From an uncultured Methanosarcinales archaeon (lineage in GTDB: Archaea; Nanobdellota; Nanobdellia; Woesearchaeales; GW2011-AR9), in contig CAZRHO010000001.1 in NCBI GenBank assembly GCA_964599955.1, positions 296 through 44,023 on the forward strand: DNA of 43,728 bases. Reading direction: 5' to 3'. The position numbers and the translations under genes were made by a program. The notes below the pieces were generated by a model that was not told the DNA's origin, ran no database searches, and saw only the letters and a program-made list of their open reading frames with translations. Shown here in pieces: positions 16,625-19,504 of this stretch. Positions within the stretch are counted from its first letter, which is position 1, and every line of letters begins with the position of its first letter.

Positions 16625-16864
16625 ATGGCTGTAATTGACGAAATATTTAGACAAGAAATTAGAAATCATTGTGATTGTCCTGAAAAGTTCCAACTAATTG
16701 ATGCTTTAGGTTCAGGATTAGGTGCTTTTTTCTTTATTAAGAATTGGAAAGAACTTAAAGATAGAAAGTTTAATGGTTGGAACGCTATGGGTTTAGGTCT
16801 TGGAGCAATTATGATGTATATCCATACTGGAAGATTTTTTTATGCTAAAAAGGTTAAAAGATAA
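16625..16864 (+). CDS. small membrane protein
   Basis: Track ORF with two hydrophobic segments. Confidence 0.55.
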   Translation: MAVIDEIFRQEIRNHCDCPEKFQLIDALGSGLGAFFFIKNWKELKDRKFNGWNAMGLGLGAIMMYIHTGRFFYAKKVKR

Positions 16865-17100
16865 TGTTCTTGTTTAATACAGGGGCAAAACACGGATTTC
16901 CTAGCTATCACGTTCTTTTTTCAGGTTTGGGTACATACACCCTAACAAAGAATAAAGTTCCAACAAACGCAATTATGGAGATTATGGGGGTACAACGTAT
17001 TCTAACAAAAAACCATTCTTTAATAGATGTAGCTTTAACTATCGGAATATTAAACTTGTTCCTTCCAAGTAATTCTTCAAAGAAACGAATTGTTTCATAA
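16864..17100 (+). CDS. possible small membrane protein
   Basis: TAATG overlap with the upstream gene fits the local pattern. However, it overlaps the convergent gene 17039..17350 by 62 nt. Confidence 0.3.
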   Translation: MFLFNTGAKHGFPSYHVLFSGLGTYTLTKNKVPTNAIMEIMGVQRILTKNHSLIDVALTIGILNLFLPSNSSKKRIVS

Positions 17101-17350
17101 GCCAAACTTTTGCTCTTGGTTGAATAAATATCAAATAAACTTCTTCGTTATATTTTCTTCCATCTTCAATTATTTTTTCAATATCGGGTTTATCATCAAC
17201 CATAGTAGAAAAAACTTTCAACATTCTTTTATTTTCAACAATCCACGTTTTAGTTAGGTCATAATCAAGAAGTCCAATGTTATTGTTGATTAACATAACC
17301 AAAGCCTTTGGGTCTATGTTAGCAACATATTTCATTAACTGATTTAACAT
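17039..17350 (-). CDS. hypothetical protein
   Basis: Track ORF. It starts 1 nt after the stop of the upstream minus-strand gene. Confidence 0.55.
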   Translation of the reverse strand: MLNQLMKYVANIDPKALVMLINNNIGLLDYDLTKTWIVENKRMLKVFSTMVDDKPDIEKIIEDGRKYNEEVYLIFIQPRAKVWLMKQFVSLKNYLEGTSLIFR

Positions 17351-17351
17351 C

Positions 17352-18926
17352 TTACATTTTGTAGGAGTCCATTTCTTCTTTATCAGAATAAAAATCCTGT
17401 TCGTTAGGGTAAGGTATATCTCCTATGGGGGTAGGCATACCTTGAGGAGGTCCTTGTGGTGGTTGATTAGGCATAATGTGTTCGTGTTGTTGTTGCATAT
17501 CAATAGGTGGAATAAATCCTGGTGGAGGTCCTTCTTTAGTTTCTGCGTGTTGATGTTGTTCGTGTTTCATTCTTTCCAATTCCATTTTCATAAGGTCCTC
17601 TTGACTTACTGATGGGGATGGAGGTTTTGGTTGACTCCATTGTTGACTTTTTGCTTCTATCATTGGCTGTAATACGGGGGCAAGATTTTCTGCTACTGCT
17701 CCAACAGTTTTAATCACTTTATCCCAACCACCTTCTTTCTTCTCATTCATTAGGTTATCCATATCTAATTTGTCAAGTAATCTTTCTTCAAACCTATGTC
17801 TAAACTTTTCAGAGAAACCACCTAATTGTTGTTGTGTCATTCCTTGAATAATGTCATTCATTTTTTCTTGGAAGGTAACTTGTTCTAATCTTAAATTATC
17901 AATTTCACGTTTCTTAATTTCTTGTTCTAATGCTCTAATTCTTTCGTCAGAACCAGTCCTAATCTTTTCAGTTACAGCAAGATAATCTTGGAAACCATCT
18001 TTTTTCTCTGATTGTTGTTTTGACAAGTTCTCAATAACTGTTTTAAATTGTTCGTCTTTCATTTGTTGAACTAATTGTTGATTCTGTAAAGCCATTTGTT
18101 GCATTTGCTGTTGTAAGATTGCGATTTGAGGGTCAGGTTTATTTCCACCTGTCATATTCTGAAACATCTGCATTTGCATTTGCATAGCCATCTCTTTAGG
18201 CATACCAGAGAACATACTTCCCCCTTCTCCTTCTCCTAAACCTTTTGAAAGCATTTTAAGAGTATATTGTTGTTTCATTAAATCTACAATTTCTTTCATA
18301 TCAAAATTACCACTTGATTTACCATTTGGTTGATTTCCCCCCATCATATCCATTATTCTCTTGGACATTTGAGCATCCATCATCTTTTCCATTACCTTAT
18401 TCGGATTTGTATTGCTATCATTATTCATTTTGCCTACCCCATTCTGTATTCCTGATTTATACGCCTTTTCGTATATTGATTGTTGAACCAATGTTTTAAT
18501 ATCGGGAGCAACACCTGAATTAATTAACATCTGCATTAAAGCTAAAGTATCAGCTGGGAAAGGAACACTCCTACTTGAAAAGATTTTCTTTTCTCCCTTA
18601 TCATTTGTAAGGGTTGCTTCTTCTTTTGGCCTTCCTCGTTTACCTTTCTTCCCTTTTGCCTTTTTCATAGCTTTTGCTTCAACTGGATGACGATTAATTA
18701 AATGTAAATTCATTCCACCAGGAGTTTTAGCAAAAAAATCACAAAACTCGCAAGGATGTCCTTCAAAGTTTTTAGGAGTTCTTTCAATTTCCTTTTCTTC
18801 TTCTTTTTCTTTTTCTTCTTGTTGTTCTTCTTCTTGTAAAAATTTATCTAATTCAGTATTTGGATTTAATTCTGTAATGTTATCAATGTCTGTAAATTCA
18901 GTTCCTCTCGGTATTAATTCTTCCAT
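17352..18926 (-). CDS. C2H2 zinc-finger / AT-hook protein with Q,M-rich low-complexity, coiled-coil and P,Q-rich regions
   Basis: CEFCDFFAKTPGGMNLHLINRH matches C-x2-C-x12-H-x4-H. GKRGRPKEE is an AT-hook core. Also contains MQMQMQMF and QQQMQQMALQNQQLVQQM, and a PPQGPPQGMP tail. Start taken at Met6 of track ORF 17352..18941 (TAA-A-ATG junction). Confidence 0.7.
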   Translation of the reverse strand: MEELIPRGTEFTDIDNITELNPNTELDKFLQEEEQQEEKEKEEEKEIERTPKNFEGHPCEFCDFFAKTPGGMNLHLINRHPVEAKAMKKAKGKKGKRGRPKEEATLTNDKGEKKIFSSRSVPFPADTLALMQMLINSGVAPDIKTLVQQSIYEKAYKSGIQNGVGKMNNDSNTNPNKVMEKMMDAQMSKRIMDMMGGNQPNGKSSGNFDMKEIVDLMKQQYTLKMLSKGLGEGEGGSMFSGMPKEMAMQMQMQMFQNMTGGNKPDPQIAILQQQMQQMALQNQQLVQQMKDEQFKTVIENLSKQQSEKKDGFQDYLAVTEKIRTGSDERIRALEQEIKKREIDNLRLEQVTFQEKMNDIIQGMTQQQLGGFSEKFRHRFEERLLDKLDMDNLMNEKKEGGWDKVIKTVGAVAENLAPVLQPMIEAKSQQWSQPKPPSPSVSQEDLMKMELERMKHEQHQHAETKEGPPPGFIPPIDMQQQHEHIMPNQPPQGPPQGMPTPIGDIPYPNEQDFYSDKEEMDSYKM

Positions 18927-18927
18927 T

Positions 18928-19212
18928 TTATATTCCCTCAATAATTTTATTTGTTAAAAACAAAAATTTATGGTTGTCGTCAATCATCATAACGGCTGGA
19001 ACGAATCCTTCTGAAGTTATTGCGTTAAATTTCCACGAACTAATATTAATCAATTTCCCATATTTAACTATAATTGCGTACGTAACCTTTCCCACATCAC
19101 ACACAACATCAAAAGGGTCGCCACTCTTTGCAAAGAAAGGAGTATAACCTAAACTTTCAAAATATTTTATTGCTATTTCCCTTCCCATAGCACCTTTTGT
19201 TTTAGATGTCAT
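18928..19212 (-). CDS. Hjc-like PD-(D/E)xK nuclease (archaeal Holliday-junction-resolvase fold)
   Basis: KGAMGREIAIKYFESLGY...SGDPFDVVCD...AIIVKYG parallels the Hjc pattern KGxxxERElxxxLxxxGF...SG..VDlvA...EVK. Ile replaces the Glu of the ExK motif. Confidence 0.5.
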   Translation of the reverse strand: MTSKTKGAMGREIAIKYFESLGYTPFFAKSGDPFDVVCDVGKVTYAIIVKYGKLINISSWKFNAITSEGFVPAVMMIDDNHKFLFLTNKIIEGI

Positions 19213-19324
19213 CTTTATTATTGAAATGAAATGACATTTAATACTTATAAATCTTTCGGATAAGTTTATATGTCCTCTCCAGTACTAACAAAACATTTAT
19301 ATACTTTTTCAACATCCTTAATTT

Positions 19325-19458
19325 AAACATCTATCACCTCTTTTTCCCGAAGGAAGCAATATTTACTTCTTTCGGGTTTCATACTTATTTCATCTGTCAC
19401 TTTGTTGGTGACCATTTTTGTCCCCAAAGGAGATTAGCTCACTCCTTTGGGTTTTTTA
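19325..19458 (+). ncRNA. candidate small structured RNA in the divergent intergenic region
   Basis: TATA-like TTTATATA lies at 19296-19303. Hairpins at 19346-19376 (11 bp, one G-T) and 19423-19451 (10 bp, perfect), followed by T6 at 19452-19457. There is no ORF. Confidence 0.25.
19423..19457 (+). terminator. hairpin plus T6 (intrinsic-terminator-like)
   Basis: CCCAAAGGAG-attagctca-CTCCTTTGGG followed by TTTTTT. Confidence 0.45.
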
Positions 19459-19460
19459 TT

Positions 19461-19504
19461 AACCAAAACATTTATATATTAAAAAATCACTAATTTTTCT
19501 ACGG
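19461..19504 (+). promoter_or_regulatory. conserved TATA-box leaderless promoter (copy 2)
   Basis: AACCAAAACATTTATATATTAAAAAATCACTAATTTTTCTACGG, then ATG 19505. The TATA box ends 26 nt before the ATG. Confidence 0.6.

What the first reader, a model, noticed from the sequence alone, without database searches (positions are those of the whole stretch)
17352..18926. Eukaryote-like architecture: C2H2 finger + AT-hook + Q/M-rich low-complexity + coiled coil + P/Q tail
Seen in sequence:
- An acidic N-terminus.
- One classical C-x2-C-x12-H-x4-H finger.
- A GKRGRPKEE AT-hook core 15 residues after the finger.
- Methionine/glutamine tracts (MQMQMQMF, QQQMQQMALQNQQLVQQM).
- A heptad-like region.
- A PPQGPPQGMP tail.

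Established knowledge: C2H2 fingers are common in crenarchaeal viruses, and AT-hooks bind the AT-rich minor groove, which suits this AT-rich genome.

A Q/M-rich prion-like or condensate-type segment in a prokaryotic virus protein is unusual. The gene sits in one of the few minus-strand islands, next to an Hjc-like nuclease. This hints at a genome-organising or replication-factory scaffold.
Basis: partly seen in the sequence, partly recalled or inferred. Interest (0 to 1): 0.6.

Follow-up and report, generated by a model that had tools for sequence, protein, structure and literature searches.

The report
Zinc-finger, ribbon-helix-helix, methionine-rich DNA-binding scaffold
This gene of an uncultivated, probably archaeal virus-like element encodes the founding member of an unannotated protein family that joins a zinc finger and a probable ribbon-helix-helix DNA-binding domain to a long methionine/glutamine-rich helical region; it most likely anchors on the element's DNA and self-associates there, but no activity has been tested.

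Summary
All the described features are in the sequence. ORF 17352-18926 (-) encodes 524 aa with an acidic N-terminus, one C-x2-C-x12-H-x4-H finger (aa 59-80, the only two Cys), a KRGRPK AT-hook core, Met/Gln-rich tracts, long helices and a P/Q tail.

The gene is real. An exhaustive phmmer search found about 20 collinear cluster representatives, all from metagenomes.

Comparison with these changes the picture:
- The zinc module varies: C2H2, C2HC, a CxxC...CxxC ribbon, or lost.
- The AT-hook is private to this protein.
Its AlphaFold2 model (pLDDT 84) finds mostly ribbon-helix-helix proteins in two structure libraries.
- Met and Gln enrichment holds across the family. It lies in amphipathic helices split by Gly loops, not in a prion-like Q/N domain.
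- The gene is always followed by a roughly 100-aa partner gene. In the closest lineages a small Hjc-like gene with unconserved catalytic residues precedes it.

Best reading: an oligomeric DNA-anchored regulator or organiser. Condensate formation is possible but unsupported. I class it as a new variant of archaeal-virus DNA-binding proteins, of moderate interest.

The parts
17352..18926 (-). Whole gene: 524-aa protein (P0001), stop codon included
   Evidence: Translated without stops. About 20 collinear homolog cluster representatives.
18759..18926 (-). Acidic N-terminal region, aa 1-56 (20 D/E against 7 K/R), with an E/K-rich predicted helix at aa 23-47
   Evidence: Acidic in most members that have an N-terminal extension. 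Encoded partly by a (GAA)n microsatellite.
18687..18758 (-). Classical C2H2 zinc finger, aa 57-80 (C59, C62, H75, H80)
   Evidence: Pattern. Family profile against solved C2H2 fingers, E 5e-7. AlphaFold2 pLDDT about 89 and Foldseek to Tramtrack at rmsd 1.5 A. Replaced by a CxxC...CxxC ribbon in 6 of 19 homologs.
18576..18686 (-). Basic linker, aa 81-117 (13 K/R, net +8), containing the AT-hook-like core GKRGRPKE (aa 95-102, nt 18621-18644)
   Evidence: The RGRP core is not conserved in homologs. Low pLDDT.
18456..18575 (-). Ribbon-helix-helix-like module, aa 118-157: strand S-R-S-V-P-F-P, helix 125-136, G-x-A-x-D turn, helix 143-157. This is the best-conserved block of the family.
   Evidence: Alignments A1, A3 and A4. 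AlphaFold2 of aa 108-165 gives pLDDT 84. Top Foldseek hits are RHH proteins in PDB and BFVD. Pfam RHH_8 is hit by only 1 of 18 members, at E 0.021.
18141..18404 (-). Met-rich amphipathic helices separated by Gly-rich loops, aa 175-262 (predicted helices 175-196, 210-230, 244-258)
   Evidence: The aligned block keeps 15-22 hydrophobic positions in every member, and Met fills 2 of 18 to 16 of 21 of them.
18009..18131 (-). Gln-rich long helix, aa 266-306, with a short clean heptad run at about 268-289
   Evidence: AlphaFold2 helix, pLDDT about 70-73. The conserved motif E-x-x-x-L-K-x-Q-L/M-Q-Q is in A1. The heptad statistics are not significant over the whole helix.
17745..17996 (-). Charged long helix aa 311-365 and helices aa 372-394
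   Evidence: AlphaFold2, pLDDT 72-76. Conserved D-x-x-x-A-x-E-K-I/V-R motif. A 215-nt metatranscriptome contig with no mismatches lies on 17738-17948.
17637..17741 (-). Conserved amphipathic helix, aa 396-430 (KEGGWDKVIKTVGAVAENLAPVLQPMIEA)
   Evidence: Conserved across the family. Strongest hydrophobic periodicity in the protein: a/d positions 0.78 hydrophobic against 0.18 elsewhere.
17355..17636 (-). P/Q-rich flexible tail (aa 431-510) ending in a short acidic/aromatic C-terminal peptide (aa 511-524, DFYSDKEEMDSYKM)
   Evidence: pLDDT below 50 for aa 475-515 and a short terminal helix at 513-521. P/Q-rich tails and a conserved terminal peptide occur in homologs.
17039..17350 (-). Partner gene (103 aa) joined by a TAA-G-ATG junction. 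It follows the target gene throughout the family.
   Evidence: junction; homologs in L002, L003 and L004, and in the distant Zn-ribbon-type locus L007 at E 1.8e-7. No family, structure or defence match.
18928..19212 (-). Upstream gene (94 aa): small Hjc/YraN-like protein and first gene of the operon, joined by a TAA-A-ATG junction
   Evidence: Conserved in L002, L003 (GTG start) and L004. The E-x-K position is not conserved. Only weak YraN and endonuclease hints.
19244..19259 (-). Archaeal-type BRE/TATA promoter of the three-gene operon (CCGAAAGATTTATAAG), with the TATA centre about 35 nt before the ATG at 19212
   Evidence: Read. The same CCGAAA...TTTATATA arrangement precedes the cassette in L002, L003 and L004.

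Best explanation
The gene encodes a modular, self-associating DNA-anchoring protein of an uncultivated, probably archaeal virus-like element.

Inferred mechanism:
- A ribbon-helix-helix-like module (aa 118-157) dimerises and reads specific sites on the element's double-stranded DNA.
- An exchangeable zinc module adds affinity. Here it is a classical C2H2 finger.
- In this member only, a basic linker with an AT-hook core adds further affinity for AT-rich DNA.
- The C-terminal two thirds form the higher-order assembly and partner-docking part. They comprise Met-lined amphipathic helices between Gly loops, a Gln-rich helix, a long charged helix, a conserved amphipathic helix, and a P/Q tail ending in an acidic/aromatic peptide.
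- The most likely docking partner is the roughly 100-aa protein encoded immediately downstream.
- Functionally it would bridge or coat several sites on the genome. That makes it a master regulator or organiser of the element's DNA, rather than a small on/off repressor.

Shown:
- the sequence features;
- a conserved family;
- the C2H2 relationship, by profile;
- conserved gene order and an archaeal-type promoter.

Inferred from models:
- the RHH fold;
- the helices.

Inferred only:
- DNA binding;
- oligomerisation;
- partner binding;
- the biological role.
For: - Family: an exhaustive phmmer search found 21 hits, collinear over aa 46-481 or so, with E down to 1.6e-56. Alignment.
- C2H2: the family profile matches solved classical fingers, E 5e-7 to 1e-4. 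AlphaFold2 pLDDT is about 89 and Foldseek gives Tramtrack and CTCF.
- RHH-like module: it is the best-conserved block. The pattern is S-x-K/R followed by alternating hydrophobics, helix A, a conserved Gly turn and helix B. The spacing from Gly to the conserved Tyr is 14 residues; my recollection is that CopG has the same spacing.
- RHH-like module, structure: the AlphaFold2 sub-model has pLDDT 84.
  - In the PDB the top Foldseek hits are RHH domains: PrpA/ParD antitoxins, NikR, Reg576 and TCP. TM is 0.55-0.72 and rmsd 1.4-2.9 A.
  - In BFVD the top named hits are RHH/CopG proteins, including archaeal-virus ones (E 0.07, prob up to 0.98).
- Met and Gln enrichment, and the two-helix Met block, are conserved across members with 20-30% identity.
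- The long helices and the strongly amphipathic conserved helix 400-430 support self-association.
- Tight operon with a conserved partner gene, even in the distant Zn-ribbon subfamily.
- In four lineages the cassette is transcribed from its own BRE/TATA promoter on the strand opposite to its neighbours.
- One metatranscriptome contig lies on the gene without mismatches. This is weak evidence of expression.
Against: - No experiment exists.
- RHH membership is not statistically established. Foldseek E-values are 0.07-6 because the domain is small. Pfam RHH models hit 1 of 18 members, at E 0.021. A PDB profile search of the module found nothing. AlphaFold2 does not draw the beta-strand in the monomer.
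- The full-length model is poor: mean pLDDT 58.6, pTM 0.21, and 201 residues below 50. The arrangement of the helices is therefore unknown.
- Heptad periodicity is not significant over the long helices.
- No operator repeats shared between lineages were found in the upstream region.
- No replication, segregation or packaging gene is linked to the cassette, so the biological role is open.
Confidence: 0.45

Rival explanations
1. It is an ordinary autoregulating transcription factor. It would act as a repressor or activator of the lytic/carrier switch. The long C-terminal part would serve only to tetramerise or octamerise it for cooperative binding and looping, as in large phage repressors.
For: - RHH and C2H2 proteins of archaeal viruses are typically transcription regulators (established knowledge: SvtR, AvtR, F55).
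- The cassette is a small divergently transcribed island with its own promoter, different from the 15-nt promoter module repeated at 19289 and 19464.
- The island keeps its position opposite to the flanking genes in four lineages.
Against: - Known viral RHH regulators are 50-100 aa. A conserved 350-aa Met/Gln-rich extension, a conserved C-terminal peptide and an obligatory partner gene are not needed for simple repression.
- No conserved operator repeats were found.
Confidence: 0.2
2. It is an assembly adaptor that couples the genome to hydrophobic virion or membrane proteins. The N-terminal modules would hold DNA. The Met-lined amphipathic helices would form a flexible hydrophobic groove, as in the SRP54 M domain or the STI1/Sgt2 C-domain. 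That groove would hold transmembrane helices of the many small membrane proteins encoded nearby.
For: - Met fills up to 16 of 21 hydrophobic positions of a conserved two-helix block flanked by Gly loops.
- Met/Gln-rich helical hands are known client-binding devices for transmembrane helices (PMC8010706 for Sgt2; SRP54 'methionine bristles' from established knowledge).
- The cassette lies among genes for signal-anchored and small membrane proteins.
Against: - No sequence match to STI1, SRP54_M or any chaperone family at E up to 1.
- Some members use mostly Leu/Ile/Phe instead of Met (P0009: 2 of 18).
- No virion data exist.
- The model of this region has low confidence.
Confidence: 0.12
3. It is a DNA-anchored condensate scaffold. 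Multivalent weak contacts of the Met/Gln-rich and P/Q-rich parts would drive phase separation on the viral genome and form a replication or assembly compartment. Methionine oxidation might tune this.
For: - The Met/Gln-rich character is conserved.
- About 38% of residues have pLDDT below 50.
- Met-rich low-complexity domains are known to drive, and redox-tune, phase separation in eukaryotes (literature retrieved, e.g. PMC9312190 and PMC9534829).
Against: - The Q+N density is below the classical 30-per-80 criterion, and the richest window has 15 charged residues.
- The Met-rich parts look like amphipathic helices rather than disordered polar tracts.
- No predictor or experiment was run.
- Nothing links the cassette to replication.
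Confidence: 0.12
4. It is an origin-binding replication organiser. It would bind the hairpin-rich non-coding region next to the cassette and recruit host replication proteins through its C-terminal peptide. The small Hjc-like protein would act on replication intermediates.
For: - A 292-bp gene-free region with three hairpins lies directly upstream.
- Part of that region (GGGAAAAAGAG..TGATAGATGTTTA) is shared with L004 although the proteins are only about 29% identical.
- PD-(D/E)xK-type genes recur near family members, including a canonical one in L006.
Against:
- No helicase, primase or polymerase is linked.
- The Hjc-like protein lacks a conserved E-x-K.
- GC skew shows no switch specific to this spot beyond the strand change of the genes.
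Confidence: 0.08
5. It is an addiction (toxin-antitoxin-like) pair. An RHH 'antitoxin' would be followed by a roughly 100-aa 'toxin', as in ParD-ParE.
For: - The best PDB structural neighbours of the RHH-like module are ParD/PrpA antitoxins.
- The gene order, an RHH protein followed by a translationally coupled gene of about 100 aa, matches type II systems.
Against: - The 'antitoxin' is 524 aa.
- The partner matches no toxin or defence family and looks helical.
- The similarity of the RHH module to ParD is fold-level only.
Confidence: 0.03

Closest known systems
Small ribbon-helix-helix regulators of archaeal viruses and plasmids (SvtR of SIRV1, AvtR of AFV6, F55 of SSV1, ORF56/CopG of pRN1) and RHH domains of ParD/PrpA and NikR
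   Same: - The predicted strand-helix-turn-helix module has a conserved Gly turn.
- Top structural neighbours in the PDB and BFVD are RHH proteins.
- The setting is an archaeal mobile element.
- The gene has its own divergent promoter.
   Different: - The module is embedded in a 524-aa protein, between a zinc finger and a 360-aa helical, low-complexity region.
- Known viral RHH regulators are 50-100 aa.
- RHH Pfam models do not recognise it.
Classical C2H2 zinc fingers (Pfam zf-C2H2; Tramtrack, CTCF, ZBTB17), including the single-finger proteins common in crenarchaeal viruses
   Same: - The spacing is C-x2-C-x12-H-x4-H.
- A beta-beta-alpha model is predicted.
- There is a significant profile match to solved fingers.
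   Different: - It is a single finger, not an array.
- The aromatic residue after the second Cys is shifted by one position.
- The Pfam model does not score the single sequence.
- Within the family the finger is interchangeable with a four-Cys ribbon.
Met-rich client-binding or self-associating regions: SRP54 M domain, Sgt2/SGTA and ubiquilin STI1 domains, and Met-rich low-complexity domains of yeast ataxin-2 (Pbp1) and TDP-43
   Same: - Methionine is used as the main hydrophobic residue of amphipathic helices, next to Gln-rich sequence and Gly loops.
- These regions are known to bind hydrophobic helices or to drive phase separation (PMC8010706, PMC13083928, PMC9312190).
   Different: - No detectable sequence or fold relationship.
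- Those are eukaryotic or universal cytosolic factors without DNA-binding domains.
- The resemblance is compositional only.
RHH centromere-binding proteins of partition systems (ParG, omega, ParR) and McdB-type Q-rich adaptor proteins
   Same: - A dimeric RHH DNA anchor is joined to a flexible or coiled region that contacts a partner and forms higher-order complexes on DNA.
   Different: - No ParA/ParM/TubZ-type NTPase is encoded in the cassette or next to it in any lineage.

Membership tests
Classical C2H2 zinc finger | C-x2-4-C-x12-H-x3-5-H ligand spacing | tested here: met
   CEFCDFFAKTPGGMNLHLINRH at aa 59-80.
Classical C2H2 zinc finger | Sequence-profile similarity to known C2H2 fingers | tested here: met
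   The family profile A1 against the PDB gives Aart 5e-7, ZBTB17 7.6e-7 and CTCF 1e-4. The single sequence does not reach Pfam zf-C2H2 at E up to 1.
Classical C2H2 zinc finger | Beta-beta-alpha fold | tested here: met
   AlphaFold2 pLDDT is about 89 at aa 57-80, with two short strands and a helix at 69-79. Foldseek gives Tramtrack 2drp at rmsd 1.5 A over 29 columns, prob 0.90. This is a prediction, not a solved structure.
Classical C2H2 zinc finger | Zinc binding | not testable with these tools
   Needs metal analysis of purified protein.
AT-hook | R-G-R-P core flanked by basic residues | tested here: met
   KKGKRGRPKEE at aa 93-103.
AT-hook | Conservation of the core in orthologs, as expected for a functional motif | tested here: not met
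   No RGRP or GRP at this position in any of the 19 other members compared (18 of alignment A1 plus the L002 protein). P0003 has GRP at its extreme N-terminus only. Linker net charge ranges from +8 to -4.
Ribbon-helix-helix superfamily | Strand, helix A, Gly-containing turn, helix B within about 45 residues | tested here: inconclusive
   The two helices (125-136, 143-157) and the near-invariant Gly turn are present, with pLDDT 84-97. The N-terminal segment has an alternating hydrophobic pattern, but AlphaFold2 does not draw it as a strand in the monomer. That is expected, because the sheet forms only in the dimer.
Ribbon-helix-helix superfamily | Structural neighbours are RHH proteins | tested here: inconclusive
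   PDB: PrpA/ParD, NikR, MazE-mt1, Reg576 and TCP dominate the top 40, with TM 0.5-0.72 but E 0.75-6. BFVD: named hits are RHH/CopG, with best E 0.07 and prob up to 0.98. The hits are consistent in kind but not significant in score.
Ribbon-helix-helix superfamily | Match to RHH sequence models | tested here: not met
   Pfam: 1 of 18 members hits RHH_8 at E 0.021. PHROGs: no named family. A PDB profile search of the module found no hit at E up to 10.
Ribbon-helix-helix superfamily | Obligate dimer that inserts a two-stranded sheet into the major groove | not testable with these tools
   No multimer prediction or experiment is available here.
Prion-like / Q/N-rich domain | At least about 30 Q+N in an 80-residue window with few charged residues (Michelitsch-Weissman-type criterion, recalled from memory) | tested here: not met
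   The best window of P0001 has 23 Q+N and 15 charged residues. Only one family member (P0017) reaches 32. PLAAC and similar predictors were not available.
Canonical coiled coil | Sustained heptad periodicity of hydrophobic a/d positions | tested here: inconclusive
   Long helices are predicted. A crude a/d test against shuffles gives p of 0.5 to 0.85 over the whole helices. There is a clean run at about 268-289, and runs with stutters at 330-363, by eye. No COILS- or MARCOIL-type program was available.
Type II toxin-antitoxin (ParD-ParE-like) | Downstream partner belongs to a toxin family | tested here: not met
   The 103-aa partner and its homologs match no Pfam, NCBIfam or PADLOC family and no solved structure.

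The most novel reading that the evidence does not exclude
An archaeal virus-like element encodes a DNA-tethered, methionine-based self-assembling scaffold. RHH and zinc modules would pin it to the genome. Met-lined helices and the Q- and P/Q-rich segments would then drive reversible higher-order assembly. This could be a condensate, or a hydrophobic-client-binding matrix that couples the genome to membrane or capsid proteins. It would be a prokaryotic-virus counterpart of eukaryotic Met-rich low-complexity assemblies that arose independently.
Probability: 0.13. Interest if true: 0.8.

Novelty: new variant of a known kind. Interest (0 to 1): 0.47.

Why it matters
Archaeal viruses are full of small RHH and C2H2 proteins whose roles are mostly guessed. 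Here both module types sit in one large protein, together with a conserved methionine/glutamine-rich helical region and an obligatory partner gene.

The protein is a core, syntenic gene of a still undescribed lineage of AT-rich elements found in seawater, groundwater and sediment metagenomes. It has no entry in Pfam, PHROGs or NCBIfam.

If the Met-rich part proves to be a self-assembly or client-binding device tethered to DNA, it would show two things:
- how such viruses organise or regulate their genomes;
- that methionine-based assemblies evolved outside eukaryotes.

If it is only a large repressor, it is still a useful family definition and a marker gene for this lineage.

Tried and rejected
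Searches that found nothing:
- Pfam, PHROGs, NCBIfam, PADLOC and a PDB sequence search with the single protein: nothing at E up to 1, apart from noise.
- tblastn against 50,697 phage and virus records: no match for the protein, for the linked ATPase of L004 or for a conserved core protein of the window.
- The word-index homolog search found only the protein itself, with one sequence and with the family profile. Low-complexity words probably swamped it. The exhaustive phmmer search was needed.
- Pattern scans of IMG/VR and of GTDB genomes found no relative. The 19-sequence alignment was too divergent to make patterns.
- Foldseek with the full-length model: only local C2H2 hits, and the rest is noise from long helices.
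- Rfam on the upstream intergenic region: nothing.
- An alignment of the four upstream regions found no shared operator-like repeats.
- Literature searches for such a family found nothing relevant.

Ideas considered and rejected:
- The Met/Gln richness is AT-bias. The window background is M 2.3% and Q 3.0%.
- The tracts are recent DNA slippage. Only two short microsatellites exist.
- The window's 78-aa membrane protein at 16864-17100 belongs to the 80-aa family next to the gene in L007 and L008. BLASTP gives E 5.6.
- ESCRT-III/PspA-like helical hairpin. No family or fold hit.
- Toxin-antitoxin pair. See the rivals.

Full report
**1. The observation**

The minus-strand ORF 17352-18926 translates to 524 residues. 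Its ATG lies in a TAA-A-ATG junction with the upstream 94-aa gene. Its stop is followed by G-ATG of a 103-aa gene. The three genes therefore form a tight operon. A BRE/TATA-like element, CCGAAAGATTTATAAG, lies about 35 nt before the first ATG.

- an acidic N-terminus, with 20 D/E against 7 K/R in aa 1-56;
- CEFCDFFAKTPGGMNLHLINRH at aa 59-80, holding the only two cysteines of the protein;
- KKGKRGRPKEE, which starts 15 residues after the finger;
- Met 7.6% and Gln 9.7%, against 2.3% and 3.0% in the other large ORFs of the window;
- a PPQGPPQGMP tail.

Only two short microsatellites underlie the tracts. AT-rich codon bias does not explain the composition either.

**2. A real gene and a family**

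The word-indexed search found only the protein itself. An exhaustive phmmer search of 1.8 billion cluster representatives found 21 hits including the query itself. Most are 340-530 aa and collinear with the query over most of its length. E-values reach 1.6e-56.

All come from metagenomes or metagenome-assembled contigs. The window is marine. Relatives come from Hainich groundwater (0.1 um fraction), another groundwater metagenome, JGI samples and a sediment MAG contig.

None was found in 50,697 phage and virus records. Pattern scans of IMG/VR and GTDB genomes found none either. No Pfam, PHROG, NCBIfam, PADLOC or PDB sequence match exists for the single protein.

**3. What the family shows (alignment A1)**

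*a. The zinc module is exchangeable.* Eleven members have C2H2 spacing and one has C2HC. Six have a CxxC-x11-17-CxxC ribbon. P0003 has lost the second Cys, and the short member P0018 has no cysteine at all.

The C2H2 version is a genuine classical finger. The family profile matches solved fingers at E 5e-7 to 1e-4. AlphaFold2 gives pLDDT of about 89 and Foldseek superposes it on Tramtrack at 1.5 A.

*b. The AT-hook core is private to this protein.* The linker's net charge ranges from +8 here to -4 in other members.

*c.

- An AlphaFold2 model of aa 108-165 built on the family alignment has pLDDT 84.
- In the PDB its Foldseek neighbours are almost all RHH domains: PrpA/ParD, NikR, MazE-mt1, Reg576 and TCP. 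TM is 0.5-0.72 and rmsd 1.4-2.9 A.
- In the viral library the named hits are RHH/CopG proteins, including ones from Sulfolobales filamentous, spiral and rod-shaped viruses.
- The scores are not significant (E 0.07-6). Sequence models barely see it: RHH_8 hits 1 of 18 members at E 0.021, and the PDB profile search found none.
- I rate RHH at about 0.7.

*d. The Met-rich part is not a featureless tract.* The aligned block (aa 205-262 here) is two amphipathic helices separated by a Gly-rich loop. It has 15-22 hydrophobic positions in every member, and Met occupies between 2 of 18 and 16 of 21 of them. Gln enrichment (6.5-11.6%) is universal. Met enrichment is usual but not universal, ranging from 2.5% to 9.0%.

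*e. A Gln-rich helix follows, then a long charged helix.* They span aa 266-306 and 311-365, with pLDDT 70-76. Heptads are clean only at about 268-289. Over the whole helices my crude test does not beat shuffles.

*f. A conserved, strongly amphipathic helix comes next.* It is KEGGWDKVIKTVGAVAENLAPVLQPMIEA, aa 396-430. A P/Q-rich flexible tail and a short conserved acidic/aromatic end complete the protein.

*g. By the classical Q/N criterion the protein is not prion-like.* The best 80-aa window has 23 Q+N and 15 charged residues.

**4. Context**

In four lineages the order is small Hjc-like gene, target gene, then a gene of about 100 aa. These are the window, L001/L002, L003/L005 and L004 with its copies L010-L012. 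The order is conserved and always lies on the strand opposite to the flanking genes.

The downstream partner is also found next to a distant Zn-ribbon-type member (L007, hmmsearch E 1.8e-7). By eye it is also next to L009. The target-partner pair is therefore the constant unit.

The Hjc-like protein does not keep an E-x-K and has only weak YraN and endonuclease hints. A canonical PD...E-S-K nuclease lies a few genes upstream in L006.

The cassette promoter has the same CCGAAA...TTTATATA form in all four lineages. This fits an archaeal host, as do earlier notes on this element. The surrounding genes encode surface proteins, small membrane proteins, glycosylation enzymes and DNA methyltransferases. 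No capsid, polymerase or partition NTPase is linked. L004 and L003 carry an AAA_10-like ATPase several kb away.

One 215-nt contig of a seawater metatranscriptome lies on 17738-17948 without mismatch. This is weak evidence of expression.

**5. Mechanism**

The most economical reading has two halves.
- The DNA-anchoring N-terminal third comprises a dimeric RHH, an accessory zinc module and, here, an AT-hook.
- The self-associating, partner-recruiting C-terminal two thirds make up the rest.

Such a protein would bind several sites and bridge or coat the element's DNA, acting as its master regulator or organiser together with the roughly 100-aa partner.

I give this composite 0.45. For the parts, DNA binding is about 0.8, the RHH fold about 0.7 and oligomerisation about 0.6.

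Rivals:
- a plain large repressor (0.2);
- an adaptor that holds hydrophobic virion or membrane proteins in Met-lined grooves, by analogy with the SRP54 M and Sgt2/STI1 domains (PMC8010706) (0.12);
- an origin-binding organiser (0.08);
- a toxin-antitoxin-like pair (0.03).

**6. Comparison and novelty**

The modules are of known kinds: the classical C2H2 finger and an RHH-like fold. Their union with a conserved Met/Gln-rich helical region in a protein of about 400-530 aa, paired with a dedicated partner gene, is not described in any library searched. Two literature searches found no description either.

The 'eukaryote-like' look comes from composition and a generic finger, not from shared ancestry with any eukaryotic factor. 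I class it as a new variant of a known kind, with moderate interest. The interest would rise sharply if DNA-tethered Met-based assembly were shown.

Noticed in passing
window 19320-19345, compared with L004 9428-9460: The gene-free region upstream of the cassette shares a stretch with the groundwater relative L004, GGGAAAAAGAG(G/A)TGA(G)TA(TA)GATGTTTA, just after a hairpin. The flanking proteins are only about 29% identical. It may belong to the candidate small RNA on the plus strand, to an operator or to an origin. Rfam finds nothing there.
   Followed up: partly
window 19289-19303 and 19464-19478: An exact 15-nt direct repeat, CAAAACATTTATATA (a BRE/TATA-like module), occurs twice in the 292-bp intergenic region. 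The cassette's own promoter (CCGAAAGATTTATAAG, 19244-19259 on the minus strand) differs from it.
   Followed up: partly
L013 8567-10017, compared with L014 8566-10017: In one Hainich groundwater replicate assembly the homolog is called as two genes (370 aa, identical to P0006, plus 104 aa). In another replicate it is one 483-aa gene. This is either a real nonsense or frameshift allele or an assembly error.
   Followed up: no
L006 1274-1837: A contig of a sediment MAG carries a 187-aa protein with a canonical PD...E-S-K (Hjc-type) motif about 1.5 kb upstream of a Zn-ribbon-type family member, with several small zinc-ribbon ORFs in between. Pfam does not recognise it.
   Followed up: no
L007 75-260, L009 143-286, L008 1560-1757: In the distant members that lack the Hjc-like gene, small ORFs (47-65 aa) with an RHH-like pattern lie upstream of the gene: directly upstream in L007 and L009, and one 87-aa ORF further in L008. 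Pfam support is only weak (56B_RHH E 0.1; RepB_C E 0.023).
   Followed up: partly
L007 2522-2776 and L008 699-944: A conserved protein of about 80 aa (38% identity, E 6e-17) lies near the gene in two distant lineages. The window's 78-aa ORF at 16864-17100 is not demonstrably related (E 5.6).
   Followed up: yes
L004 5840-7684 (also L010, L011 and L012): A 614-aa protein in the groundwater relative contains an intein with a LAGLIDADG homing-endonuclease domain (Intein_splicing 5.5e-8). The host protein is unidentified, with a weak transglutaminase-like hint.
   Followed up: no
window 18795-18835: The (GAA)n tract that encodes the E/K-rich N-terminal helix attracts hundreds of unrelated short metagenome contigs (depth 988 against about 9 elsewhere). 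Read depth there says nothing about the element.
   Followed up: yes
window 17039-17100: The 3' end of the cassette's last gene (minus strand) overlaps the 3' end of the plus-strand ORF 16864-17100 by 62 nt. This is a convergent overlap with no room for a terminator between them.
   Followed up: no
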